64,000 nucleotides of DNA from a virus. The DNA lies in the IMG/VR virus record IMGVR_UViG_3300043409_001462, positions 32,001 through 96,000 of that record; one strand, given 5' to 3'. This document shows, piece after piece, positions 8,861-54,843 of this stretch (positions are counted from its first letter, which is position 1; every line of letters begins with the position of its first letter). The translations under genes were made by a program, and so were the position numbers. Below the pieces are notes generated by a model. It saw only the letters and a list, made by a program, of their open reading frames with translations, did no database searches and was not told where the DNA came from.

Positions 8861-9190
8861 ATGGCATCAAAAGCTAACTTAGTAATAGATCAAGGCGCTA
8901 CATTTTCTACTGATTTGTATTTGACAGATACAGATGGTGCACCATTATTATTGAATGGTTATACAGCAGATTCTCAGATGAGAAAATGGTATACTTCTTC
9001 TAATTCTTCGGCTGTTTTTACGACCTTTGTTAATGTAGAATCTTCGTTTATAACTCTAAGCTTGGCGGCTAATTCGACAGGCGCTTTGACTGCTGGTAGA
9101 TATGTTTATGATGTAGAAATATCTGATGGTAATACTGTGTCGAGAGTTGTGGAAGGAATTGTTACAGTAACACCTCAAGTAACGAGATAA
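8861..9190 (+). CDS. conserved small virion beta-sandwich protein (fibre anchor/adaptor-like)
   Basis: ANLVIDQGATF...AGRYVYDVEI...RVVEGIVTVTPQVTR, a recurrent T4-like phage protein. Confidence 0.75.
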   Translation: MASKANLVIDQGATFSTDLYLTDTDGAPLLLNGYTADSQMRKWYTSSNSSAVFTTFVNVESSFITLSLAANSTGALTAGRYVYDVEISDGNTVSRVVEGIVTVTPQVTR

Positions 9191-9193
9191 CAA

Positions 9194-9535
9194 ATGGTTA
9201 ACGTAGCAGTACTAAACAAAATTCAAAGTATTAGAGTAAACACTAGTATTGATAAAATGAAATCTACTAATGTAGTAGTTGCAAATAAAAGAAACGTTCA
9301 AGTTTCTGCAAATGCTACAATGGGCGTAATAGATTCTACTACTCCTGTAACCATAATAAATACTCCTACGTTAATTTCTATGGGTGCTACAAGATTAAGC
9401 CAGCTCGAAGATGTTAACACAAGTAACAAAGTACAAGGTGCTACACTTGTTTACGAATCTGGTAATAATACTTACGTTGTGACACAGCTTGATATGCAAT
9501 ATATTACAGGAGGATTACAGGGAGGTACTTTTTAG
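9194..9535 (+). CDS. small fibre adaptor ending in GGTF
   Basis: RLSQLEDV...GATLVY motif; C-terminus LQGGTF. Confidence 0.6.
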   Translation: MVNVAVLNKIQSIRVNTSIDKMKSTNVVVANKRNVQVSANATMGVIDSTTPVTIINTPTLISMGATRLSQLEDVNTSNKVQGATLVYESGNNTYVVTQLDMQYITGGLQGGTF

Positions 9536-9536
9536 A

Positions 9537-9544
9537 TATAAATA
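9537..9544 (+). promoter_or_regulatory. T4-type late promoter TATAAATA
   Basis: Perfect consensus, intergenic, 21 nt before the ATG at 9566; gp55 is in the window. Confidence 0.75.
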
Positions 9545-9565
9545 TTAGAAAAAGAGCTTTAAAAT

Positions 9566-10318
9566 ATGGCTTATAGACCAATTCAAATAAAGTATTCGGT
9601 ATCGAATGCGGTTGTACCTACCTTAATTCCTGGCGAACTTGCGTTCACACAAGCTGGGAATAATTTTTTTATTGGTGCACCTGATGGCGTTTCGGGTAAT
9701 ATACGTATTGGACATAAGTTTCATGATGGTGTGCTTACCGCCAACGAAGCTTTAGTTGCCAACTCTTCTGGTGGTATAGATAGATTATACGCCGCAGCTG
9801 GTGATATTTACTCTATTAATTCTTATTCTATTACTACTAATAGTCTTTCAACTGGAAGTCTTTCAGTAACTCAATTAAACAGTTCGAATATAAGCATTAC
9901 AACCATGTTGGCCAACAGTTCTTCTGGCGAACCTGGATATGTTCTTACTTCTGCTGGCGTTAATGGAAATGTATACTGGAAGCAAATAACCGAAGGAAGT
10001 GCGACGTCTAATACTTATTACGTAACCAGTAATATGTATGATTTTAGAGCGTATAACATGGGGTTTATGAATATAGCACCAAATCAAAATGCCGAAACTC
10101 TTGGATTTAGAACTGAAATAACAATACCATATGGTTCTATTTGGCTTCTTGCTAAAAACACAACAGACCAGCCACCTGTTTCAATATCTTCTCCTGGTAC
10201 TACTATAACACCGATGATGTGGATTTCAGTCGATAAAAGTGGAACTTATGATCCTGATACTAATCCAAACGGTAAAGATTATTGGTTTAACATAACACCA
10301 CCACCGTCGGGAGCATAG
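9566..10318 (+). CDS. short fibre protein with Mtd_N-like N-terminus
   Basis: IQIKYS...PGELAFT N-terminus; G-x-x-G-Y-V-L-T-S...VYW fibre motif; N-terminal region paralogous to ORF 11400. Confidence 0.65.
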   Translation: MAYRPIQIKYSVSNAVVPTLIPGELAFTQAGNNFFIGAPDGVSGNIRIGHKFHDGVLTANEALVANSSGGIDRLYAAAGDIYSINSYSITTNSLSTGSLSVTQLNSSNISITTMLANSSSGEPGYVLTSAGVNGNVYWKQITEGSATSNTYYVTSNMYDFRAYNMGFMNIAPNQNAETLGFRTEITIPYGSIWLLAKNTTDQPPVSISSPGTTITPMMWISVDKSGTYDPDTNPNGKDYWFNITPPPSGA

Positions 10319-10319
10319 A

Positions 10320-11369
10320 ATGGCATTACCCACACGTGGTACGTTAGGACAAATAGTTGTTAACAATGGTTACAACTATCAATGGACTGGTGTAGGCTGG
10401 AACAATATTGGTATAGCCACTATTACTGTTGGTGCGACCACAATCAATTCTACATCTTTATCAACTGGTACCACTACAGTAAACTCTACTGGAGTATCAG
10501 CTGGTACAACATCATTAACAACTACTGGTATTACAGCTGGTACTACTACAGTAAACTCTACTGGAGTTGCTGCAGGTACTACTACCTTAACGAGTTCAGG
10601 AGTAACAGCTGGATGTACTTCTATTACATCTACTGGTATTACAGCTACATCCGTAGTTTCAAATTCTGTATCTGTTGGCGCGACCACAATTAATTCTACT
10701 GGAGTTGCAGTAGGTTGTACTTCTATTTCCACGGTTGGTGTTTCAATAGGTTGTACTTCAATCACAACAACTGGTATTGTAGCAACTTCGTTAACAACTG
10801 GTACTACTACTATCAATTCTACTGGAGTTGCAGTAGGTTGTACTTCTATTACATCTGTCGGTATATCTGCAGGAGATACAGTTTTAACAACTGGTGGTAT
10901 GAGTTTTGGTACAGGTGCAAACAGTAGCGTAGTAAACTCTACTGTTGTTTCTGTTGGTACTACAGAAATACGTAACGATAGAATTACAGCTGGTAGTATC
11001 GTAATCGGTCAATCTAATAATATCGTTCTTGGTAATAGTACTGTTAACAGTGTTATTTCATCTACATTCATATCTGTTGGTGATGGTGTAATCAACTCTT
11101 CGTTCTTCACAGCAACGTCTAACAATGCGAATAACTTAGGTGGCGTTTCGTCTGATTACTACATAAACACTTATGGTAATTACGTAATAAGTGGAGTTCA
11201 TACATATAATGCTAATGTCGCAATAAATAGTCGTATTATAATTGGAGGTAGTGCAGGTAACACGTGGGATTTACTTACATCTAATGGTGTATCTAATAGC
11301 GTGTTTTGGGCTAATATTGCAACAGTAATTACTTCAACAGGCGCTAGTTTGGACGGTGGGGATTTCTAA
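10320..11369 (+). CDS. Thr-rich repeat fibre protein ending in DGGDF
   Basis: 12-aa repeats GTTTVNSTGVSA; ANNLGG motif; C-terminus LDGGDF. Confidence 0.7.
   Translation: MALPTRGTLGQIVVNNGYNYQWTGVGWNNIGIATITVGATTINSTSLSTGTTTVNSTGVSAGTTSLTTTGITAGTTTVNSTGVAAGTTTLTSSGVTAGCTSITSTGITATSVVSNSVSVGATTINSTGVAVGCTSISTVGVSIGCTSITTTGIVATSLTTGTTTINSTGVAVGCTSITSVGISAGDTVLTTGGMSFGTGANSSVVNSTVVSVGTTEIRNDRITAGSIVIGQSNNIVLGNSTVNSVISSTFISVGDGVINSSFFTATSNNANNLGGVSSDYYINTYGNYVISGVHTYNANVAINSRIIIGGSAGNTWDLLTSNGVSNSVFWANIATVITSTGASLDGGDF
10428..10900 (+). repeat. 12-aa Thr/Ser/Gly tandem repeat, several units with Cys (GCTSI)
   Basis: Visible in translation; DNA unit aattctactggagttgcagtaggttgtacttctatt occurs twice. 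Confidence 0.8.
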
Positions 11370-11372
11370 TTA

Positions 11373-11380
11373 AATAAATA
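11373..11380 (+). promoter_or_regulatory. late promoter variant AATAAATA
   Basis: Intergenic, upstream of the ATG at 11400. Confidence 0.5.
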
Positions 11381-11399
11381 ATAAAAAAAGGATTCCGTA

Positions 11400-13652
11400 A
11401 TGGCACGCAATACAATTCAAGTTAGACGTTCGGCGACAAATAGCATCACTAGCCTTCTTAGTGGTGGTTCGCTTGCGGCTGGTGAATTAGCATATACCAG
11501 TAATGGTGTTTTACTTTACATCGGTGATGCGAATAGCGTAGGTACACCTATCCGTATCGGCGGACAGATGAATCCTGGTGTTCTTACTGCTAATCAAGCT
11601 CTTGTTGCTAACTCTACACTTGGTATCGATAAAATTATAGTTGCAAATCTTGCAATTAGTAGAATTACTGCAAACGGCGAATTTGGAACTCCTGGTTATG
11701 TGTTGGCTACATCTGGTACGCTTGGTAATGCTTACTGGACTTCGTCTTCTGGTTTCGGTGTAGATCCTTTCGCTTCTTATGTTTGGACAAACACACATAC
11801 ATTTAGTAACTCAGTTACTTTTGAACAAACAATCATAGGTACATCATATAACTCTGCTAGACTTGGTGGTCTTGAGGCTGGTCAGTATGTTAATTCTACA
11901 TATCTAACTACCAATTTTCAATTAAGTGGTAGTGCGCTTTCTGATAATGTTGCTTCCCTTACAGCAAACAATGCTACTAATTTAGGTACGCAACCAGCTA
12001 CTTACTTTGCTGCTAATTCTGCTCTGAGTAATTACACAAATACTGCTAGTTTACCTGGATTTATGTCTACGAGAGCAGCTAACAGCGCCAGTTATCTTGG
12101 TGGTGAAGCAGCTACTTACTTTGCTGCTAATTCAGCTCTTGGTAATTATACAAATACTGCTAGTTTACCTGCATATATAGCTACAATATCTGCTAATAAT
12201 GCGAGTCATCTCGGCGGTCAGGTAGCGACTTACTTTGCTGCTAACTCTGCATTAGCAAACTATACAAATACTGCTAGTTTACCAGCATATATAGCTACAC
12301 AAACAGCATATAGCGCCGACAGACTTAATGGTCAGTTACCAACGTATTATACAACTAACTCAGCATTGTCTGGGTATGTTGCAACAATGACTGCAGGTAA
12401 TACTTCATTTGTCGGTGTAAGTCCAGCTTCTAGTATTGTTAATGCAACAACATTAACTGCAAATCTTAATAATTACGCTGCTCTTGCTGGTGCAAATTTT
12501 AGCGGTGTTGTTAATGCATACTCTTACAAAACTGGTACAGGATACGGTGGAGCTGGTGGCCCAACAACTACAGGCGCTATAGTTAATACAACTCATATCG
12601 CTATCGGTAACAGTAGTGTTAATGGTGCGATAACAGCTAACTCTACTAATGTATTTTTTACTGGTGTTGCATATAATGCTAACGTCGCTGCATATATCGG
12701 TACCGTAGCAGCTGCAGATGTTGCACCTCGTTCTGAAGTTGTAGCGTTAATTTATGATGCTTCTTATGGCGGTGCTACTCAATCATACGTTGATACAAAA
12801 GCTGCTCAAGCTTATACTAATGCGTTTAATTATGCGAGTATCAACCATAGCCTTGCTATAGCGAACTCTGTAACAGCATACACTAACGCTTTAGCTGTTA
12901 CGCTTACAAGAAATGCAACGTATACTGGTAATAATATATTCAATGGCACTATAGCAACATTTAATGCTAATATTGTTGCTTCTAATGCATCTTTTTGGAA
13001 TCTTAATGTTACTGGCAATTTAAATATTTCTGGTACACTAACTACTATCAATAGTACAGAACTTCAAATAAAAGACAACAGTATACTTCTATCTGATTCA
13101 CAAGCTAATTCGTCAACTTATACAGACGCTGTTGATATTATTGTATATGGTCAATTTGGTAATACTTCGAATACTTGGTATTCTGGTTTATATCGTGATT
13201 CTTCTGCTAGTCTAGGTCGAACTAATCCTAACTTAGGTGTTTGGAAATTATTTTCTGCAAAAAGTGGTACTGGTGATAATTCTATATCTAATTCTACTGT
13301 AGCTGCGATGACAGCTACTGAAGGAGATGTCAATTATAAACTAGGTATATTAACAGCTTACCTTGAACCATATGGCGAAACTGGCAGATTTGTTGCTAAT
13401 GCTACTTCTATTTCAATAACAGCTAACAGTACTGTTAATGTAAATATTTCTGCCAATTCATTAGTACTAAGTAGTCCGTTAGCAGCTGTAAGTGGTGGTA
13501 CTGGCATTAACACTTATAGCGTTGGTGATATGCTTTATGCTGCCAGTTCATCAACATTTACTAAAATATCTGTTGGTACTCCTGGTCAAATACTACAAAT
13601 ATCAGATCAAAACCTTCCACGTTATGCAGATTTGGATGGTGGCTCGTTTTAA
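11400..13652 (+). CDS. tail fibre protein, Mtd_N-like N-terminus, C-terminus DGGSF
   Basis: IQVRRS...AGELAYT; ANNAxxLGG repeats; GNLNISGTLTTINSTELQIKD shaft motif; SGGTG...GDMLYA motif; ends LDGGSF. Confidence 0.75.
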   Translation: MARNTIQVRRSATNSITSLLSGGSLAAGELAYTSNGVLLYIGDANSVGTPIRIGGQMNPGVLTANQALVANSTLGIDKIIVANLAISRITANGEFGTPGYVLATSGTLGNAYWTSSSGFGVDPFASYVWTNTHTFSNSVTFEQTIIGTSYNSARLGGLEAGQYVNSTYLTTNFQLSGSALSDNVASLTANNATNLGTQPATYFAANSALSNYTNTASLPGFMSTRAANSASYLGGEAATYFAANSALGNYTNTASLPAYIATISANNASHLGGQVATYFAANSALANYTNTASLPAYIATQTAYSADRLNGQLPTYYTTNSALSGYVATMTAGNTSFVGVSPASSIVNATTLTANLNNYAALAGANFSGVVNAYSYKTGTGYGGAGGPTTTGAIVNTTHIAIGNSSVNGAITANSTNVFFTGVAYNANVAAYIGTVAAADVAPRSEVVALIYDASYGGATQSYVDTKAAQAYTNAFNYASINHSLAIANSVTAYTNALAVTLTRNATYTGNNIFNGTIATFNANIVASNASFWNLNVTGNLNISGTLTTINSTELQIKDNSILLSDSQANSSTYTDAVDIIVYGQFGNTSNTWYSGLYRDSSASLGRTNPNLGVWKLFSAKSGTGDNSISNSTVAAMTATEGDVNYKLGILTAYLEPYGETGRFVANATSISITANSTVNVNISANSLVLSSPLAAVSGGTGINTYSVGDMLYAASSSTFTKISVGTPGQILQISDQNLPRYADLDGGSF
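11964..12370 (+). repeat. 114-nt/38-aa tandem repeat (ATYFAANSALxNYTNTASLP...), 3 clear copies plus a partial
   Basis: aaatactgctagtttacc recurs at 114-nt spacing (about 12038, 12152, 12266). Confidence 0.85.
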
Positions 13653-13668
13653 ATGATGGAGATATATT

Positions 13669-13995
13669 ATGAATGAAGAATTTATTAACACTTACATTGA
13701 AATGAACAACAAGAAAATTGAAGAACTAACTCGTTCTGAAATACTTCTTCAAACAAGGATAGTTATAGCCGAAAAGGCTGTTACTAAATTAAACGACGAG
13801 AAGAAAAGCTTTTCAGACGATTTTGAAAATTTCAAAGAAGTACAACTTAATGTTCAAAAAGAATACAGTGAGAAGAACAAAGAGTTGTTTAATGAAAATC
13901 AGGATTTAATTAATCAGAAAAAAATGTTATTGCAGGAAATTGAATCGTTGAAACAAGCAATCACTTTGGTTTCGGAGAATCAAAAAAAGAAGTAA
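13669..13995 (+). CDS. small coiled-coil protein, possible fibre chaperone
   Basis: Glu/Lys-rich heptads; GGAG RBS. Confidence 0.6.
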   Translation: MNEEFINTYIEMNNKKIEELTRSEILLQTRIVIAEKAVTKLNDEKKSFSDDFENFKEVQLNVQKEYSEKNKELFNENQDLINQKKMLLQEIESLKQAITLVSENQKKK

Positions 13996-13997
13996 TA

Positions 13998-14033
13998 CCT
14001 CGGTATATACCGATTATGAGGATGCCATATGGC
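13998..14033 (+). promoter_or_regulatory. palindromic element over the RBS and start codon of ORF 14029
   Basis: Perfect palindromes tcggtatataccga (14000-14013) and gccatatggc (14024-14033, contains the ATG); CCTC can pair with the SD GAGG. Confidence 0.5.
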
Positions 14034-16851
14034 TGATAATAAAATTTTAATTAAGCGCACGAACATCCCAGGTCGTGTCCCTAACACCACCAATTCATCT
14101 AATTCGATGTACATCGCAGCAGGTGAATTTGCGCTTAACATGGCGGACAAACAGCTATACACGTCAAATGGCTCCTCATTAATTACTATTGGATCTTCTC
14201 CTACAACATTAACGCTTGCTGATTCTTTACGTATTGGTTTAATTGAAACTAATTTACTGCTTATTAATTCAACAGCTGTATTTACTGGTAACGTTACTTC
14301 TAATACATTAGTAGGTACAGGTTCTATTTCAGTTCAAAATACTACTAGTAATTCAACAATAAGTCCAACAACGATTTATGTTGGTAACAATATAGCTAAT
14401 ATTTCATTGGACGTAACTGGTGGTGTGAAAACTATTCCAATTAGCTTTGCTAATATCAATTCTTCTGGTGTTGCAACAATACAAACTACTATCAATCACG
14501 GTATTACTCTTGTTACTCAGGCTAAACTATACGTAAATACTTCACAAATTTCTTTGAATACTGCGAACTACAGTTCTGATTATAACCCAGCTGGTTTTAA
14601 TATAGTCGCTATACCATCAGCAAATAGCGTAAAGGTTAACATACCTACAGCTGAATTTAAATATAGATGGGGTGATAGAACAATCACCTACATCAATAGA
14701 AATTTACAGGGTGTAGTTACCATCCTCACAAAAGGCGCTCATGGTTATCAAAATGGTGATAAAGCATACACTACTAATGTTAAGTACGACCCAAATAAAG
14801 CACCATTTACATTTCTAGATAATGTATTATTACCTGTACCGAGTACGCTTACTGTAGTAGATGATTTTACTGTAAATTACACTCAATCTGATTATTCTAG
14901 TGTTTCTAGATCAATTCAAGGAGCTAAGTTTACTTTAGCTGCTGTTGAACCTGTAATAGTAGGTATTCCTGAAAGAGGGCAGTATTTTGATAAAAAAATA
15001 GTTATTATTAGAGTTACTAGTTCAGTAGTATCTAGTTTTAAAGTAGGCGATCCTATAACACTTTCTGGTCTTCCATATCAACCAAATAGGGGCGATCATG
15101 ATAGAGTTGCTTCAGAAAGAGGAACTTATTTTAATAACGTAACTCAAATTTCTCCTTCTTATTTGAATAAAACTTGGTTCATTAAAGATATTGTTATTAA
15201 TAATGATAATACTACCTCTATTTCTATTTTTATAGTAGAAGAAGATCGATTGAAAAAGTGGTATTTTACTGGTGGTTTAAACGAAATAACTATAGGCGCT
15301 GGCGCATACATCTTAGTAAATTACACAGATACAGGCGTATTGACCAATACTTCTCAGCTTTGTCCATATTTTGCTAATAGTTCTATTGGCGGTGAAATTT
15401 ATGCAACAAACCCAACAGGTATTACTATCAAAAACGGATCAAAATTAATCTATGTTCTTGATAGCGCTGTATACGTTGGCAACAATACTATTGGTAATAT
15501 TATTGACGTTTCTGGTTCAAGAGTTTTTAAACCTACAGATGTAGAATCTATTATACCACCAACTTATATTGTTCAAGCAAGCACTGCTTCTTTAAACGAA
15601 GGCGGTACTGTAATTTACAGTATCACTACTTCTAATTTTGGTACAGGAACATTATACTGGACGAACTCTGGAACTACAATCGGTGCCGACTTTACAGATG
15701 GAACTAACTCAGGTACGATAAGTATAGTTAATAATTTCGGTACGATTAGTAAAACGTTAGTAAATGATTTTACTGCCGAAGGATTAGAAACTATTATATT
15801 AGAACTTCGCACTAACTCTACTTCTGGACCTATAGTTGCAACATCAAGTACAGTATCAGTTATCGATACTTCTTCTCAAACATACGCTATTGCCGCAAGT
15901 TCTTCTTTCAGAGACGAAGGTCAAACTATTACATTTACTGTGACAACACAGGGCGTTCCAAACGGAACTACTTTGTATTATAAAAACGTTGGTACGACAA
16001 TTGCAGCTGACTTTGATGATGGATTAAATTTTGGTAGCTTTAATATAAACGACAATAGTGGCACTGTCGTTAAAACAGTACGTAACGACTTTACTTCTGA
16101 AAATCAAGAAAATATTCGAATAGAAATTCATACTGTTTCTGTTGATGGACCTACAGTTGTTACTTCAAGTACGGTGCAAGTATTTGATACTTCTATTCCA
16201 ACATACTCTATTGCTGCTGATGTTAACCCAGTCGCAGAAGGTAATAAGGTTACATTTACTGTAACAACTCAAGGCGTTCCTGATGGAACTACTCTGTTTT
16301 GGACGAACTCAGGAACCACTACTGCAGCTGACTTCTACGAAAATACAAATTCAGGAAACTTTACTGTTTCAAATAACAGAGGAACAGTATCTAGAATTCT
16401 ATATTATGATTTACTCACAGAAGGATCCCAAAGTATTATATTCCAAGTTCGAACAGGTTCGACTTCTGGAACTATTGTCGCCTTCTCAGTACCAGTAACA
16501 GTAACCGATACTTCGATCGCAACTAGCCCATACTATGGAATAACACCAACAACTTATAGTACAAGCGAAGGAAACTCAGTTTCTTTTGACGTTTACGCCG
16601 AACAAACTCCAAACGGAACCACTCTTTATTGGACGAATGAAGGAACATCTACTGCGGCTGATTTTACAGACGATTTAAATTTTGGAACTGTTACTATTAA
16701 TAGTAGCCATGGTACTGTGGTCAGAAATATCAGACAGGATAGTTTGACAGAAGGGTCAGAAACATTTATATTTGCGTTAAGAACTGGTTCTATTACTGGA
16801 CCTATTGTTATTATGACAACTCCAATTACTATAGCCGCTAACGCTACTTAA
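14029..16851 (+). CDS. fibre/adhesin with Mtd_N-like N-terminus and four C-terminal Calx-beta/Ig-like repeats
   Basis: ILIKRT...AGEFALNMADKQLY; four ~105-aa units [ND]EG.T[VI].F.[VI]TT..GTTLYW...ADF...D.xxEG.E. Confidence 0.7.
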   Translation: MADNKILIKRTNIPGRVPNTTNSSNSMYIAAGEFALNMADKQLYTSNGSSLITIGSSPTTLTLADSLRIGLIETNLLLINSTAVFTGNVTSNTLVGTGSISVQNTTSNSTISPTTIYVGNNIANISLDVTGGVKTIPISFANINSSGVATIQTTINHGITLVTQAKLYVNTSQISLNTANYSSDYNPAGFNIVAIPSANSVKVNIPTAEFKYRWGDRTITYINRNLQGVVTILTKGAHGYQNGDKAYTTNVKYDPNKAPFTFLDNVLLPVPSTLTVVDDFTVNYTQSDYSSVSRSIQGAKFTLAAVEPVIVGIPERGQYFDKKIVIIRVTSSVVSSFKVGDPITLSGLPYQPNRGDHDRVASERGTYFNNVTQISPSYLNKTWFIKDIVINNDNTTSISIFIVEEDRLKKWYFTGGLNEITIGAGAYILVNYTDTGVLTNTSQLCPYFANSSIGGEIYATNPTGITIKNGSKLIYVLDSAVYVGNNTIGNIIDVSGSRVFKPTDVESIIPPTYIVQASTASLNEGGTVIYSITTSNFGTGTLYWTNSGTTIGADFTDGTNSGTISIVNNFGTISKTLVNDFTAEGLETIILELRTNSTSGPIVATSSTVSVIDTSSQTYAIAASSSFRDEGQTITFTVTTQGVPNGTTLYYKNVGTTIAADFDDGLNFGSFNINDNSGTVVKTVRNDFTSENQENIRIEIHTVSVDGPTVVTSSTVQVFDTSIPTYSIAADVNPVAEGNKVTFTVTTQGVPDGTTLFWTNSGTTTAADFYENTNSGNFTVSNNRGTVSRILYYDLLTEGSQSIIFQVRTGSTSGTIVAFSVPVTVTDTSIATSPYYGITPTTYSTSEGNSVSFDVYAEQTPNGTTLYWTNEGTSTAADFTDDLNFGTVTINSSHGTVVRNIRQDSLTEGSETFIFALRTGSITGPIVIMTTPITIAANAT
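15560..16848 (+). repeat. four tandem Calx-beta-like domains
   Basis: Repeated EG..V.F, GTTLYWTN.GT..AADF, SGPIV motifs. Confidence 0.75.
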
Positions 16852-16860
16852 GGATGATAA

Positions 16861-18222
16861 ATGGCTAACAATTTTTCTTCTATACTATCTTCTGATCACT
16901 TAGCAATTGAAACGCTCAGTGAACTACTGGATGGTCAGGTAGATCAAACTGCTAATAGTTTATACGCTAATGCTAGTATAATCAGCATTGGTAATTCTTC
17001 TGTATACACTTATATTACACCTTATGATTTTACTACTTCGAAAGTTACAATAGGCACCGCTTCTGCAAACGTAGTTATAGATCCATTAAGTATTAATTTA
17101 AGTTATGCTGGACGTAATACTTCTATTACTCCATTCAATTCTACTTTTGCTGGTTTATTAACAGCTGAAAGTGGTATTTTTGTAACAGGACAAACATATC
17201 TTGGTCAAGAATTATATGCTAATGGTATTGCTGGAAATAGCGGCGATGTACTTGTAGCTTCTGGCGCTGGTCAATACTGGTCAAATTCAGTAAACAATGC
17301 AATAAATCTTGCTGGCGTTCCTTCTACTTCTTATGTTAATTCTACTGGTACCTATACTATCAGCGGCGTTCATACACATATTGCAAACCTAGTATTTGGT
17401 AACTCTACCGTTAATTCTACTATGTTTGCTAACTCTACCAATGTATTCTTTACTGGAATTTCATATACAGCAAACAACTCTATAAATCTTGGTGGTGAAC
17501 CAAAATCTTATTACGCTGCGAATAGCTTATTAGATAACTATCTAACGCTTTCTGGAACAGCAGCTAACGTTGCTGAATTAACTGCTAACAATTCAAACTA
17601 CCTTGGTGGTATTGCAGCAAACGAATATATGTTGCTGACTACTCTTCCAGGTTTACAAACTAAAGCTGCTTTGGCAGATGACGTTCATAAATTAACAGCT
17701 AATAGTTCTGATTATCTTGGTTCTTATGCTGCAGATCAATACGCATTCGCTAACGTTATACCTACACTTCAAACTAAATCTGCATTACCATATGATGTTT
17801 CTCAATTATTAGCAAATAGCGCTAACTATCTTGGTGGTTTATATCATACTTTATACCCTACTAAATTTAATAATTCTATCATTACTGGTGTTTATACATA
17901 TAATGCAAATGTTCAGTTAAGAGCAGCTTTATGGGCTAACGGTAGTCCTGGAGCTCTTGGACAAGTACTGGCTGCAGATGCAAGCGGTAACGTGTTCTGG
18001 CAAACTACTAATGGTCAATCTATTTCTGTAAATAACTTTGTTGTTACTGGTAGAGTTGTAGCAAATTCTTTCGTTGGTGAAAAAGGATTAGTGTTAACGT
18101 CAAATGGTAATGGTGTTTATTGGTCTGATGTTAGCACTACAGGCGCAGGTACTTTCGATGGGGGTACACCTTTGTCTTCTTATATAAATAGTCCAAAACT
18201 AGACGCTGGCGGAGTGTATTAA
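16861..18222 (+). CDS. fibre protein ending in DGG...LDAGGVY
   Basis: AN[NS]SxYLGG repeats, three G-x-x-G-x-VL...W motifs, NGQSISVNNFVV; stop overlaps next start (taatg). Confidence 0.7.
   Translation: MANNFSSILSSDHLAIETLSELLDGQVDQTANSLYANASIISIGNSSVYTYITPYDFTTSKVTIGTASANVVIDPLSINLSYAGRNTSITPFNSTFAGLLTAESGIFVTGQTYLGQELYANGIAGNSGDVLVASGAGQYWSNSVNNAINLAGVPSTSYVNSTGTYTISGVHTHIANLVFGNSTVNSTMFANSTNVFFTGISYTANNSINLGGEPKSYYAANSLLDNYLTLSGTAANVAELTANNSNYLGGIAANEYMLLTTLPGLQTKAALADDVHKLTANSSDYLGSYAADQYAFANVIPTLQTKSALPYDVSQLLANSANYLGGLYHTLYPTKFNNSIITGVYTYNANVQLRAALWANGSPGALGQVLAADASGNVFWQTTNGQSISVNNFVVTGRVVANSFVGEKGLVLTSNGNGVYWSDVSTTGAGTFDGGTPLSSYINSPKLDAGGVY
18183..18190 (+). promoter_or_regulatory. 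T4-type late promoter TATAAATA
   Basis: Perfect consensus inside the 3' end of ORF 16861, 31 nt before the ATG at 18222. Confidence 0.6.
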
Positions 18223-21200
18223 TGGCAATTCAAATTCAATTTCGCAGAGGAACAGCCGCCCAGTGGGCTTCTGCGAACACTACACTTACGCAAGGTGAAC
18301 TTGGACTAGAAATAGACACAAGCTATTTTAAAATTGGTGATGGAAATACTGCTTGGACTAATTTAGGTTATGCTATATCACAGCTAGCAAATAATGCTAC
18401 ACATGCAAATAACTCTGCATATCTTGGTGGACTTATTGCTACTGGTTATCAAACCACTGCAGGACTAGCAGCTAACGTTGTTACTTTAGAAGCTAACTCT
18501 GCAACTTATCTTGGCGGTAACACAGCTGCTACGTTAAGAACATATACTGATGATAGAGCAGCTAATGCATACTCTAATTCTGTTTCGTATGTAGAAACAC
18601 AAATTAGTGGGAAAATTGCAAATTCTATTACAGCTAACTCTGCTACTGCTTACACTAACGCTGTAAACATAGCTGCAGCTGATGCATCAGCAAAAGTTGG
18701 TGGTGTTATATCTTATGTTGGTGTTGTAATTGGTACAGCTAATACTGCTATGGTTGCAAACGCTGAAGCTGCTTATACTAACTCTACAATATTCGCTTCG
18801 AACGCTACTAATATTAATACTGGTACGTTATCTGAAACTCGTTTACCATACCGTATGAACCAAAATGTTCGTACAACAGATAACGTTACATTCAATGATA
18901 TGGCGATTACTGGTAACTTGACTGTTACTGGAAATACTACAATCGTTGGCGCAAATAATCTAGTAGTTAAAGATTCTGTTATCAGTCTTCATACACAAGC
19001 TAACCTAGCTGCATGGACTTCGAATGATGGCAAGCTAGTTGGTGTTGCTTATCATTACTACGATACACAAGATCGTCAAGCTCTACTTGCGATGAATCCA
19101 TCGAATACATTTCTTACATATTACAAAACATCAACTGACGCTGCTATAGCTGATCCTACTGGTACTGATCTTGGTACTATTCAAGCTGATACTTTCTATG
19201 CTGGTAACTCTACTGTTTACTCAACAGTTAATGCTACTGTATACAGCGGAACAGCGAATAACGCATCATACTTAAATGGTAATTCAGCTGCAACGTTAAT
19301 ATCTCTTAGTAGCACATCGTATACGAATGCTGTTTCATATACAGATACCAAGATCGGTCTAGTTAACACAGCTATCACAGCTAACTCTTCTGCTGCTTAC
19401 TCTAATGCTGTACTTTATGTCGACAACAAATTATACGTCAACTCTGCTCAGTTGTCAAGCAATTTATCAAGCTATCAGACGACAGCAGGATTGAGCGCAA
19501 ATGTTGCTACTCTTACATCTAACAGTGCATCGTTTATAGGAACATTACCAGCTGTCAATGTTGTTTCTAATTCACAGTTATCTTCGAATCTAGCTAACTA
19601 CGTAACAACAACTAACCTTACAAACAACCTAGCTAACTATCAAACTACTGCTGGGTTAAGTTCAAATGTTGCTACTCTTACATCTAACAGTGCATCATTT
19701 GTTGGTGCTGTATCGGCTGCAAATGTCGTATCAAACGCCCAGCTTGTAGCAAACCTAGCTAACTACGCGACTACTACTGCAGCTACTGCATATGCAGCAA
19801 CAGCCTACTCGAATGCTGTATCTTATGTTGATGCTAAACCATACGTAAATACATCTCAGCTTTCATCTAACCTAGCTAACTACCAAACTACTGCTGGTTT
19901 GTCAGCAAATGTTGCAACACTAACTTCTAACAGTACATCGTTTGTTGGCGCTGTATCAGCTGCTAACGTTGTATCGAACACTCAGTTATCATCTAATCTA
20001 GCTAACTACCAAACTACTGCTGGTTTGGCAGCTAATGTCGCTACTCTTACAGCTAATAATAGTAGTTTTATTGGCGCAATATCTGCTGTTAACGTTGTAT
20101 CTAATTCTCAATTAAGTTCTAATCTTTCTGGGTATGCTTCATTAAGTGGTGCTACTTTTACTGGCGCTGTTCAAATTTCAAATAATTTAACAGTGTCTGG
20201 AAATATAACTTTTTCTGGTAATAGTGTTTCTGTTGGCGCAAATAGTTTAGTTATTCAAGACGCTGTTATCAGCCTTCATACTAATTCTAGTTTGGGTGCG
20301 TTATCTTCAAATGATGGTAAATTGATTGGTATAGAATATCATTACTATGATACTTCTGATAAACATGCATTACTAGCAATCAATCAATCAAACGCTTTTC
20401 TTTCATATTATAAAACTGCAACAGACGCAGCTATCGGAGATCCTACTGGTATATTACTTGGTACTATTCAGGCGGATACATTTTACGCTGGTAACTCTAC
20501 TGTATACACCACAACAAACTCTACAATTTATACTGGTACATCTAACAATACTTTATACGTAGGAACAGTATCAGCAGCCAACGTTGTATCTAATGCACAG
20601 CTAGCAGCTAACCTAGCAAACTTTGCTTCTTCTGGTTCTCTTTCAGGATACCAAACAACAGCGGGATTAGCAGCTAACGTAGCAACCTTAACATCTAACA
20701 GCACTAATTTTGTTGGTACTGTATCTGCCGCTAACGTTGTATCAAATAGTCAACTTAGCTCTAATCTTGCGAATTATCAAACTACTGCTGGCTTGTCAGC
20801 AAACGTAGCTACGCTTGCATCTAATAATGCATTGTATCTTGGAGGCGTAGCAGCTGCTTCATATGTTAATACTACTGGCTCTTATAGTATTACTGGCGTT
20901 CATACATATAACGCTAATATAGTTATTAGCACATTAGCTGGTATTTCTACTAATGGAACATTTGGTACATCTGGGCAGGTATTGACAACAAACGGTTCTG
21001 TTGTTTACTGGGCACCTACAGGCGCTGGTAGCTTTACTAATGGTCAATCTATTTCTGTTAATAATTTTGTAATTTCTGGAGTTATCACAGCTAATTCTTC
21101 TAATGGTACTGCAGGTCAGGTATTAACATCAAACAGTACTGGTGTTTATTGGGATGCGCCAGCTGTATCTATAACTGCTGCTAATGCTACTTCACAATCA

Positions 21201-21473
21201 TTTACTGGTGACAATACAACAGCAATATTTACGCTAACCAATTCAGTAGCAAATCAAAGGAACGTAATTGTTTCTATTAATGGTTTGCTGCAGGTTCCAG
21301 TAACTCATTATACTATTTCAGGAACAACATTAACATTCACTGATGCTCCTTATACTGGAGCTGTTATTGAAGCAAGAAGTATAGAAGGTGTTGCGCTTGT
21401 TAGTGGAGGTTCTGGTGGAACAATTTCTAGTGGTGATCTATTCATAGGTTCAATGCTCTTAGGCGGAATGTAA
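18222..21473 (+). CDS. long tail fibre with major-tropism-determinant N-terminal (Mtd_N/HylP-like) domain
   Basis: IQFRRGTAAQWASANTTLTQGELGLEIDTSYFKIGDG..AW..LGY is the classic Mtd_N signature; duplicated ~100-aa domain; C-terminal FTGD...SINGLLQVP..Y domain; ends MLLGGM. Confidence 0.8.
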   Translation: MAIQIQFRRGTAAQWASANTTLTQGELGLEIDTSYFKIGDGNTAWTNLGYAISQLANNATHANNSAYLGGLIATGYQTTAGLAANVVTLEANSATYLGGNTAATLRTYTDDRAANAYSNSVSYVETQISGKIANSITANSATAYTNAVNIAAADASAKVGGVISYVGVVIGTANTAMVANAEAAYTNSTIFASNATNINTGTLSETRLPYRMNQNVRTTDNVTFNDMAITGNLTVTGNTTIVGANNLVVKDSVISLHTQANLAAWTSNDGKLVGVAYHYYDTQDRQALLAMNPSNTFLTYYKTSTDAAIADPTGTDLGTIQADTFYAGNSTVYSTVNATVYSGTANNASYLNGNSAATLISLSSTSYTNAVSYTDTKIGLVNTAITANSSAAYSNAVLYVDNKLYVNSAQLSSNLSSYQTTAGLSANVATLTSNSASFIGTLPAVNVVSNSQLSSNLANYVTTTNLTNNLANYQTTAGLSSNVATLTSNSASFVGAVSAANVVSNAQLVANLANYATTTAATAYAATAYSNAVSYVDAKPYVNTSQLSSNLANYQTTAGLSANVATLTSNSTSFVGAVSAANVVSNTQLSSNLANYQTTAGLAANVATLTANNSSFIGAISAVNVVSNSQLSSNLSGYASLSGATFTGAVQISNNLTVSGNITFSGNSVSVGANSLVIQDAVISLHTNSSLGALSSNDGKLIGIEYHYYDTSDKHALLAINQSNAFLSYYKTATDAAIGDPTGILLGTIQADTFYAGNSTVYTTTNSTIYTGTSNNTLYVGTVSAANVVSNAQLAANLANFASSGSLSGYQTTAGLAANVATLTSNSTNFVGTVSAANVVSNSQLSSNLANYQTTAGLSANVATLASNNALYLGGVAAASYVNTTGSYSITGVHTYNANIVISTLAGISTNGTFGTSGQVLTTNGSVVYWAPTGAGSFTNGQSISVNNFVISGVITANSSNGTAGQVLTSNSTGVYWDAPAVSITAANATSQSFTGDNTTAIFTLTNSVANQRNVIVSINGLLQVPVTHYTISGTTLTFTDAPYTGAVIEARSIEGVALVSGGSGGTISSGDLFIGSMLLGGM
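19440..20830 (+). repeat. about 40-aa repeat QLSSNLANYQTTAGL[SA]ANVATLTSNS.SFVGAVSAANVVSN, about 6 copies in two blocks
   Basis: Visible in translation. Confidence 0.85.
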
Positions 21474-21482
21474 GAGGAAACA

Positions 21483-21809
21483 ATGGCAACAACATATAAA
21501 GTATTAGGTAATGTTAATCCAGCTTCAACAACAGCGACAACATTATATACAGTACCAGCAGCAACAAGTACAATTGTATCAACAATAAACGTTTGTAATC
21601 AAGGAGCAACTGGTTCTTTCAGAATAGCTATTAGACCAGCTGGAGCTACATTAGCAGCAAGTCATTACATTGCATATGATACACCAATCCCAGCTACTGA
21701 CTCAGTAGCATTAACAATGGGTATAACTCTAGCAACAACAGATGTTATAACTGTTTATGCTAGTTCAGCAACTATGTCATTTTTAGCATTTGGATCTGAG
21801 ATTACGTAA
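21483..21809 (+). CDS. small fibre adaptor protein
   Basis: YKVLG...TTLYTVPA...STINVCNQ...FRIAIRP...GITL...FGSEIT, a recurrent phage protein usually preceding Gly-rich tip proteins. Confidence 0.7.
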   Translation: MATTYKVLGNVNPASTTATTLYTVPAATSTIVSTINVCNQGATGSFRIAIRPAGATLAASHYIAYDTPIPATDSVALTMGITLATTDVITVYASSATMSFLAFGSEIT

Positions 21810-53418: not shown

Positions 53419-54843
53419 ATGTATCTAGCTGAGGCAATTCAAAACAAGTGGGCACCTGTTCTCGATCATGACGCTCTTGGCGTTATCAAGGATCAGCACC
53501 GTCGCTCCGTAACAGCAGTAATGCTCGAAAACACAGAAAACGCCCTTCGTGAAGCTCATGCTCACACTGGCTATCAGACTCTTACTGAAGCAGGTATCGC
53601 ACCTTCTGCAGTTAACGCAATGGGTGGTTCTTCATCTACTGCTGGTACTGGTGGTATCGACACTTTCGATCCAGTACTTATTTCTCTAGTACGTCGTGCA
53701 ATGCCTAACCTTATTGCTTATGATATCTGCGGCGTTCAGCCAATGACTGGTCCAACTGGACTTATCTTCGCAATGCGTTCAATGTATGCTAACCAGCAGA
53801 CTAACTCAACAGGCTATGCTCTTAATCAGGGCGATGCTGTAACTCAGGAAACTTTCTATCAGGAAGTTAATACTGCGTTCTCTTCTGTTGTTGGTGGTGG
53901 TAACCAGCTTGGTAACAATAACGTTGGTAAGTTCCCAGGCGCAACTAACACTACACCACTTAGTGCACTAAGCCAGTATAACACTGCTGGTGGTATGGCT
54001 ACTACTGTTGCAGAAACTCTTGGTTCTAACAGTTCTGGCGCTTCTGACTTCGCTCAGATGGCATTCACAATTGAAAAGGTTACTGTAACTGCTAAGTCAC
54101 GTGCTCTTAAGGCAGAATACACTATGGAACTTGCTCAGGATCTTAAGGCAATCCATGGTCTAGACGCAGAAACTGAACTTTCAAACATCCTTTCAGCTGA
54201 AATTCTTGCTGAAATCAACCGTGAAGTTGTTCGTACTATCAACATCTCTGCTGTTGCTGGCGCTCAGGACAATACAACTACTGCTGGCGTATTCGATCTT
54301 GACACCGACTCAAACGGTCGTTGGTCAGTAGAAAAGTTCAAGGGTCTTATGTTCCAGCTTGAAAGAGAAGCTAACGCTATCGCCCGTCAGACTCGTCGTG
54401 GTAAGGGTAATATCGTACTTTGCTCTTCTGACGTCGCTTCTGCACTTCAGATGGCTGGTGTACTTGACTACACTCCAGCTCTTAACTCAAACAATCTTCA
54501 GGTAGATGACACTGGTAACACTTTCGCTGGTGTTCTTAACGGTCGTCTAAAGGTTTACATCGATCCATACGCAATCGGTGGTAACTACCTAACTGTTGGC
54601 TATAAGGGTTCGTCAGCATTCGACGCTGGTCTATTCTATTGCCCATACGTTCCTCTACAGATGGTTCGTGCAGTTGATCAGTCAAGCTTCCAGCCTAAGA
54701 TCGGCTTTAAGACTCGTTACGGCATGGTAGCAAATCCATTCGCTGAAATGAATACTTCTTATCAGGCTGTTAAGGGTCAGGGTCGTCTTGATATTTCCAA
54801 GAACATCTACTATCGTCGTATGATTGTTAACAACCTAATGTAA
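53419..54843 (+). CDS. gp23: major capsid protein gp23
   Basis: KWAPVLDH, FDPVLISLVRRAMPNLIAYDICGVQPMTGPTGLIFAMR, SRALKAEYT.ELAQDLKAIHGLDAE, FQPKIGFKTRYG. Confidence 0.99.
   Translation: MYLAEAIQNKWAPVLDHDALGVIKDQHRRSVTAVMLENTENALREAHAHTGYQTLTEAGIAPSAVNAMGGSSSTAGTGGIDTFDPVLISLVRRAMPNLIAYDICGVQPMTGPTGLIFAMRSMYANQQTNSTGYALNQGDAVTQETFYQEVNTAFSSVVGGGNQLGNNNVGKFPGATNTTPLSALSQYNTAGGMATTVAETLGSNSSGASDFAQMAFTIEKVTVTAKSRALKAEYTMELAQDLKAIHGLDAETELSNILSAEILAEINREVVRTINISAVAGAQDNTTTAGVFDLDTDSNGRWSVEKFKGLMFQLEREANAIARQTRRGKGNIVLCSSDVASALQMAGVLDYTPALNSNNLQVDDTGNTFAGVLNGRLKVYIDPYAIGGNYLTVGYKGSSAFDAGLFYCPYVPLQMVRAVDQSSFQPKIGFKTRYGMVANPFAEMNTSYQAVKGQGRLDISKNIYYRRMIVNNLM

What the first reader, a model, noticed from the sequence alone, without database searches (positions are those of the whole stretch)
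9194..18400. Plug-and-socket code 1: C-terminal (D)GG-x-F/Y peptides always precede genes with an Mtd_N-like N-terminus
Seen: four ORFs end in the same short motif (9194 LQGGTF; 10320 LDGGDF; 11400 LDGGSF; 16861 FDGG...LDAGGVY). Four ORFs begin with an Mtd_N-like I-x-[IVF]-[KR]-[RY]...GE[LF] domain (9566, 11400, 14029, 18222). Every Mtd_N gene is the next fibre gene after a GG-x-F/Y gene (4/4, once with a small coiled-coil gene between), and no other fibre gene here has either element. ORF 11400 carries both, like a chain link. Inference: the GGxF tail is a docking peptide captured by the Mtd_N trimer of the next protein, so fibres are daisy-chained and gene order encodes assembly order. I do not know of this being described as a general docking system.
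Basis: partly seen in the sequence, partly recalled or inferred. Interest (0 to 1): 0.85.

Follow-up and report, generated by a model that had tools for sequence, protein, structure and literature searches.

The report
Peptide plug joins phage fibre proteins
Many unrelated bacteriophages end one fibre or anchor protein in a short "D-G-G" peptide and begin the next protein with a small three-chain cap that probably grips it; this looks like a widespread, so far undescribed, snap-on joint for building multi-protein host-binding fibres.

Summary
Four genes in a T4-like phage fibre array end in a hydrophobic-D/Q-G/A-G peptide, and four start with an Mtd_N/HylP-type cap. A motif scan finds no others in the 173-kb genome.

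The pairing is general. In viral contigs, 115/158 cap genes directly follow such an end, against 45/1762 other genes. In loci chosen only for an IDGGTF-stop, the next gene carries the cap in 39/62. Thirteen of 17 cultured phages examined show it, on unrelated carrier proteins. Three cap subtypes go with three peptide subtypes.

A 3+3 complex model supports binding (0.69, best control 0.33; mark reached by 58/80 solved complexes, 2/110 mismatched pairs). Binding is predicted, not shown.

- The core is φ-D-G-G, not GG-x-F/Y.
- The model docks the inner FDGGTP of 16861.
- Plugs can be internal and non-adjacent, so gene order is a tendency, not a code.
- The four junctions alone are not one chain.

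The cap was already presumed to attach Mtd to its fibre. I found no paper naming its peptide ligand. This scan noted the pairing before in at least 12 other genomes, including giant viruses.

The parts
8861..9190 (+). 109-aa Ig-like protein, fold of T5 p132 / DT57C LtfC fibre-anchoring collar; probable root of the chain
   Evidence: AF2 model pLDDT 89; Foldseek top hits 8hqz and 7qg9, E 5e-8, TM 0.76-0.78; PHROG 3304 E 6e-20; precedes a DGG adaptor in 28 of 28 relatives
9194..9535 (+). 113-aa adaptor ending in plug LQGGTF (9515-9532); orthologues end LDGG[ST]F
   Evidence: cultured phage Melnitz has the same gene
9537..9544 (+). TATAAATA, T4-type late promoter consensus before 9566
   Evidence: the motif is not above chance in the window as a whole, function inferred from position only
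9566..10318 (+). 250-aa fibre segment with subtype-B cap (about 9566-9751); no plug
   Evidence: HMM E 6e-10; N-half 56% identical to a single cap-plus-plug gene in relative L159
10320..11369 (+). 349-aa fibre segment ending in plug LDGGDF (11349-11366); no cap
   Evidence: C-half 66% identical to the same L159 gene
11400..13652 (+). 750-aa link fibre: subtype-B cap (about 11400-11594) and plug LDGGSF (13632-13649)
   Evidence: profile match to canonical cap 95% probability; model's best PDB hit HylP N-terminus, weak
13669..13995 (+). 108-aa predicted coiled-coil gene between link and next cap gene; position conserved, role unknown
14029..16851 (+). 940-aa terminal protein: subtype-B cap (about 14029-14223), then repeated Ig-like domains; no plug
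   Evidence: HMM E 7e-9; Pfam Ig_3 E 1e-9
16861..18222 (+). 453-aa fibre segment ending in a double plug: FDGGTP (18154-18171) and LDAGGVY (18199-18219); no cap
   Evidence: inner motif is the one docked in the complex model
18222..21473 (+). 1083-aa fibre with canonical subtype-A Mtd_N/HylP cap (18222-18401), stop-start overlap with 16861
   Evidence: Pfam Mtd_N E 9e-14; HylP PDB chains E 3e-9

Best explanation
The φ-D-G-G peptide is a portable docking ligand ('plug'), and the Mtd_N/HylP-type N-terminal trimer is its receptor ('socket'). A trimeric fibre or anchor presents three plugs. Each lies along the first strand of the cap (residues 6-10 of 18222, Q-F-R-R-G), and the residue after D-G-G-x packs by the conserved Trp15 (predicted; strand addition is my inference from the contact ladder). 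This joins separately encoded fibre segments, enzymes or adhesins end to end. Proteins with cap and plug, such as 11400, extend a chain; proteins with several plugs can branch. Plug and socket genes usually sit next to each other, often translationally coupled, and come in matched subtypes: A caps with DGG-x-P/A, often doubled; B caps with terminal DGG-x-F; BPP-1-type caps with D-[LHF]-G-x-φ. Here the likely path is collar 8861 > adaptor 9194 > 9566 ... 10320 > 11400 > 14029, and separately 16861 > 18222. Shown: motifs, gene order, co-occurrence, subtype pairing. Predicted: the interface. Inferred: binding in the virion, selectivity, chain order, the 9566-10320 link.
For: Cap-selected IMG/VR loci: 115/158 cap genes follow a plug, against 45/1762 other genes. 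Plug-selected loci: next gene has a cap in 39/62, against 23/478 for other gene ends in those loci. 13 of 17 cultured phages show it, on non-homologous carriers: a streptococcal tail endopeptidase before HylP, central tail proteins of Salvo and Epa43, small genes beside major capsid genes, 65-69-aa adaptors. 16 of 21 genome-collection loci also show it. Subtype pairing: 0 of 104 plugs before A caps end DGG-x-F; 143 of 152 before B caps do; double motifs precede 80/104 A caps and 7/152 B caps. Complex model of 3 x 18222(1-60) with 3 x 16861(422-453): score 0.69, best control 0.33; mark reached by 58 of 80 solved complexes and 2 of 110 mismatched pairs (counts hold only roughly here); runs agree in >=89% of contacts; partner pLDDT >=53; contacts fall on D-G-G-T-P and on near-invariant cap residues Q6, R8, R9, W15, W45. 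The Mtd beta-prism is already presumed to attach to the tail fibre (PMC10743442).
Against: No experiment. Only one of four pairs and no non-cognate pair was modelled. One unrelated 32-mer scored 0.33 on the cap, so the strand edge may be sticky in the model. The terminal LDAGGVY made no confident contact. Counts are not phylogenetically independent, and the B set was partly selected on IDGGTF. RSP15 and ScarletRaider have caps with no plug found. Many BPP-1-type caps follow genes without a plug. The fold match of the B cap is weak (Foldseek E 0.16).
Confidence: 0.8

Rival explanations
1. Docking is real but unselective or hub-based: any plug takes any cap, so virions carry mixtures or branches and gene order only reflects co-inheritance and coupled translation.
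For: Internal tandem plugs four genes away in S-RIM12 and P-RSM3; loci with more caps than plugs; the three B plugs here are near identical; subtype pairing could be shared ancestry; 5 or more of 13 mixed loci include a cross-subtype adjacency.
Against: A and B pairings show almost no cross-over (0/104 and 9/152, most of the 9 still ending in F), and hold where both types share a genome, as here and in L159. This rival shares the binding step with the best explanation and differs only on order and selectivity.
Confidence: 0.4
2. The junction (peptide, stop, ribosome site, cap start) travels as one DNA module by recombination; the peptide caps or folds its own protein and does not touch the cap domain.
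For: Fibre genes are mosaic (own knowledge); many junctions share a stop-start overlap.
Against: Gaps run from -17 to about 175 nt, sometimes with an inserted gene. Codons vary while D-G-G is kept. Plugs occur on unrelated folds and as internal repeats. The model places the peptide on the cap.
Confidence: 0.1
3. Gly-Gly is a by-product of a Shine-Dalgarno site (GGAGG) for the next gene lying in the last codons.
For: In coupled pairs 20 of 45 D-G-G codon triplets contain GGAGG.
Against: Where the gap is >=15 nt, the motif still precedes 29/59 cap genes against 24/611 other genes, and 0/14 contain GGAGG. Other coupled genes rarely have it (26/903). The Asp and the inner and internal motifs are unexplained.
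Confidence: 0.03

Closest known systems
Bordetella phage BPP-1 Mtd on its tail fibre (PDB 1YU0; Pfam PF18454)
   Same: Same N-terminal domain family. Mtd trimers sit at fibre ends, two per fibre (PMC2408619), presumably held by the beta-prism (PMC10743442). The upstream fibre gene bbp9 ends DLGGIA.
   Different: The partner peptide was not identified in the papers read. Here caps head long fibres, three of four are a divergent subtype below Pfam's cut-off, and cap-plus-plug links can chain.
Streptococcal prophage hyaluronidase HylP N-terminal domain (PDB 2C3F, 6X3M)
   Same: 18222 residues 3-56 match at E 3e-9. The gene before hylP in Javan472 ends ILDGGKK.
   Different: The deposited chains found are HylP alone; no PDB chain matches the plug profile.
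T5 p132 / DT57C LtfC collar with LtfA-LtfB branched fibre
   Same: 8861 has the LtfC fold. LtfA joins LtfC by beta-sheet augmentation and LtfB hangs on LtfA (PMC10713586).
   Different: In T5-like phages the fibre's own N-terminus enters the collar. Here a small adaptor with a plug follows the collar gene, in a T4-like myophage.
Branched or chained receptor-binding systems: T4 gp34-35-36-37-38, CBA120 TSP4 hub, G7C gp66/gp63.1, KP32 gp37/38 (own knowledge); A1002 rope with fibre dimers (PMC13730344)
   Same: Several separately encoded proteins build one fibre. A1002 dimers dock by an augmented beta-sheet.
   Different: Those joints use folded hub domains or an N-terminal peptide and are lineage-specific. 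This is a 5-6-residue, mostly C-terminal motif shared by myo-, sipho- and podophages of many hosts.

Membership tests
Mtd_N (PF18454) / HylP N-terminal cap | Pfam gathering score, 18222 | tested here: met
   51.5 bits, cut-off 26.3
Mtd_N (PF18454) / HylP N-terminal cap | Pfam gathering score, 9566, 11400, 14029 | tested here: not met
   11400 17 bits; 9566 and 14029 no hit. They are divergent homologues, not formal Pfam members
Mtd_N (PF18454) / HylP N-terminal cap | Remote homology of subtype B to the canonical cap | tested here: met
   hhalign probability 95%, E 2e-8; one HMM hits all four; 11/46 B members hit PF18454 weakly
Mtd_N (PF18454) / HylP N-terminal cap | Same fold for subtype B | tested here: inconclusive
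   Monomer model pLDDT 76; best Foldseek hits HylP 6X3M, E 0.16, probability 0.82; VIA Z 3.0 to 2C3F and 2.7 to 1YU0
Mtd_N (PF18454) / HylP N-terminal cap | Homotrimer at the extreme N-terminus | tested here: inconclusive
   Position met; modelled as three copies at pLDDT 83-85, but the copy number was imposed
T5 p132 / LtfC fibre collar (8861) | Single Ig-like domain with LtfC fold | tested here: met
   Foldseek E 5e-8, TM 0.76-0.78
T5 p132 / LtfC fibre collar (8861) | Dodecameric ring on the tail that holds fibre N-termini | not testable with these tools
   needs a virion structure
T4gp10-like / XD-domain branching hubs (CBA120, G7C, KP32) | Folded hub domains that capture N-terminal peptides of spikes | not tested
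   No Pfam or PHROG hit of that kind; no direct comparison made
DGR-diversified Mtd receptor-binding protein | C-terminal C-type lectin with variable repeat, plus reverse transcriptase cassette | tested here: inconclusive
   No C-lectin hit in the four cap proteins; the genome was not searched for a DGR

The most novel reading that the evidence does not exclude
φ-D-G-G / Mtd_N is a general, subtype-selective connector used across tailed phages (and, by this scan's other unchecked notes, giant viruses) on tails, baseplates and heads. With it, neighbouring genes specify the order of segments in a multi-protein fibre, and any enzyme or adhesin can be hung on a virion by a 6-residue tag.
Probability: 0.4. 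Interest if true: 0.85.

Novelty: new variant of a known kind. Interest (0 to 1): 0.7.

Why it matters
It would name the missing partner of a domain known since the Mtd and HylP structures and explain how those proteins are held on their virions. It gives a simple rule for reading long unannotated fibre arrays of aquatic T4-like phages, and for Arthrobacter, Gordonia, Microbacterium, Xylella and Cellulophaga phages: which protein hangs on which. It shows how receptor-binding modules can be exchanged as whole genes. A short peptide with a 60-residue trimeric receptor, in several subtypes, would also be a compact protein-assembly tool. It can be tested directly with peptides and small domains.

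Tried and rejected
Literature: ten searches. 'DGG motif'+phage, PF18454 and 'daisy chain'+tail fibre+trimer each gave 0 papers. The others gave none describing this joint. The library lacks most subscription papers, so absence is not proof. The A1002 chain-like fibre is a different system, dimers on a rope protein.

No PDB chain matches the plug profile. The subtype-B cap found no GenBank phage by tblastn, though Melnitz has it by inspection. The Shine-Dalgarno explanation was tested and rejected as the cause.

A recurrent pairing of the 9566-type C-terminus with the 10320-type N-terminus was looked for and not found as a rule, so that link is open. The sigma-70 promoter scan was at chance level. 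The Atlas gave no family for 13669. A plug search in RSP15, ScarletRaider and S-RIM12 by the double-plug profile found nothing, but missed motifs seen directly in S-RIM12, so it is insensitive.
Full report
Setting. The window is part of a 173-kb T4-like phage genome. Its capsid protein is 60-67% identical to those of DLP6, phiM12, Mosig and Melnitz. The finding lies in a 35-kb array of fibre-like genes between the baseplate genes and neck gene 13.

Observation. All motifs are as reported. A motif scan of the genome's 346 ATG-started ORFs finds four plug-type ends and four cap-type starts, all here. About 0.4 ends are expected by chance. Only 18222 is a formal Pfam Mtd_N member, and it matches the HylP N-terminus in the PDB at E 3e-9. 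The other three are divergent. One HMM iterated on independent loci hits all four, and the two profiles align at 95% probability. A model of the 11400 cap has HylP as its best, though weak, fold match. The conserved core of the peptide is hydrophobic-D-G-G; 16861 has two copies 15 residues apart.

Generality. In IMG/VR loci fetched by the cap alone, 115 of 158 non-redundant cap genes directly follow a plug-type end, against 45 of 1762 other genes. Most exceptions have a plug two or three genes back, often behind a small coiled-coil gene. The reverse test used loci fetched only by DNA for IDGGTF-stop. The next gene starts with a cap in 39 of 62, against 23 of 478 for other gene ends in those loci. 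Sixteen of 21 loci from the genome collection agree (many are probably phage contigs in bins). These counts are not phylogenetically independent.

Cultured phages. Ten of 17 have a clear adjacent plug (Qui, Pureglobe5, Cole, Roman, Schmidt, Javan472, Salvo, Epa43, phiST, Melnitz). Three have a degenerate one (BPP-1, phi14:2, Zeph) and four have none (RSP15, ScarletRaider, S-RIM12, P-RSM3). The carriers are unrelated proteins, which is the strongest sequence argument that the peptide itself is the functional unit. S-RIM12 and P-RSM3 carry tandem motifs inside a baseplate-region protein four genes upstream. RSP15 and ScarletRaider remain unexplained.

Subtypes. HylP-like A caps follow DGG-x-P/A-type ends, doubled in 80 of 104, and never a terminal DGG-x-F. 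B caps follow terminal DGG-x-F in 143 of 152. BPP-1-like caps follow D-[LHF]-G-x-hydrophobic ends in 16 cases but have no adjacent plug in 49 of 71. The window obeys this: three single F-ending plugs before B caps, the double plug before the A cap. Part of the B set was selected on its plug, and shared ancestry can produce such tables, so selectivity is inferred.

Structure. Three copies of 18222(1-60) with three of 16861(422-453) scored 0.69, best control 0.33. The mark was reached by 58 of 80 solved complexes and 2 of 110 mismatched pairs; those counts hold only roughly for this job. Runs agree in at least 89% of contacts and partner pLDDT is at least 53. Confident contacts join F-D-G-G-T-P to cap residues 6-10, 14-15, 18, 20 and 45, which include near-invariant Q6, R8, R9, W15 and W45. 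The terminal LDAGGVY was not placed. It may bind a second trimer, which would fit the two Mtd trimers per BPP-1 fibre (PMC2408619), but that is speculation. I found no solved complex of this kind, so the pass is unlikely to be recalled, though the cap trimer itself is in the PDB. The model supports binding; it does not show it.

Chain. Gene 8861 folds like the T5 p132 / DT57C LtfC collar, which holds fibres by beta-sheet augmentation (PMC10713586). It is followed by a 74-132-aa plug adaptor in all 28 relatives examined. The order collar, adaptor, cap-plus-plug link, (coiled coil), terminal cap protein recurs in many of them and in Melnitz. I could not establish that joint. 16861 has no cap and 14029 no plug, so 16861-18222 is a separate branch or needs another link. 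Gene order thus probably mirrors assembly in this cassette, but it is not a strict code.

Rivals. A Shine-Dalgarno by-product is rejected: the motif persists where the gap is 15 nt or more (29/59 against 24/611) without GGAGG, although coupled pairs often use the codons that way. Hitchhiking of a DNA junction fits poorly with variable gaps, variable codons, internal copies and unrelated carriers. Unselective or hub-type docking remains open.

Known and new. Fibres built from several proteins are well known, and the Mtd beta-prism is presumed to attach to the tail fibre (PMC10743442). One paper reads Mtd_N as a receptor-specificity domain (PMC9206674). Ten searches found no description of the peptide ligand or of a general joint; the library is incomplete. 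This scan has noted the pairing in at least 12 other genomes, including giant viruses. Those notes are leads, read after my own tests, and not support.

Verdict. A real, widespread, probably undescribed peptide-domain joint; a new variant of a known kind. Binding about 0.8 likely; the full selective, order-encoding reading about 0.4; interest 0.7.

Noticed in passing
L003:1-2687 (S-RIM12) and L431:1557-5888 (P-RSM3): A baseplate-region protein just before gp8 carries three internal hydrophobic-D-G/A-G motifs, two of them 14 residues apart like the double plug; probable hub for the large Mtd_N fibre four genes downstream.
   Followed up: partly
L159:9329-9970 versus window 9566-11369: A close relative has one 213-aa cap-plus-plug gene where this phage has two genes (9566, 10320), suggesting a second kind of joint was inserted into a link.
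   Followed up: partly
window 13669-13995: Small coiled-coil gene kept between link and terminal cap gene in many relatives; cyanophages have a small gene of like character before their cap gene. Possibly a fibre chaperone like T4 gp57A (own knowledge, untested).
   Followed up: partly
window 11400-11609 model: Subtype-B cap model weakly resembles collagen XV/XVIII trimerisation domains (Foldseek E 0.57; VIA Z 4.0), ranking next to HylP.
   Followed up: no
IMG/VR loci L009-L197: In coupled plug-cap pairs the Gly-Gly codons often read GGAGG (20/45) but never in uncoupled pairs (0/14): the plug seems to double as the next gene's ribosome site.
   Followed up: yes
L062:10001-10198, L098, L136, L171: Minimal 65-120-aa proteins that are only cap plus plug, i.e. 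pure spacers or adaptors.
   Followed up: no
window 18222-21809; L318-L397: Other recurrent end-start pairs (ends such as LLGGM, LMGA, AIALG, IIFGF before fixed N-termini) suggest further joint types in these arrays.
   Followed up: no
L424:3483-4330 (Roman), L422:4502-8747 (phiST), L006:9401-13807 (phi14:2): Plug-cap pairs lie among head genes; in Roman directly after the major capsid gene. The joint may also hang proteins on capsids.
   Followed up: no
window 53419-54843: Major capsid protein closest to Stenotrophomonas phage DLP6 (67%), Sinorhizobium phiM12 group (63%) and Mosig/Melnitz (60-62%): an uncultured T4-like phage.
   Followed up: yes
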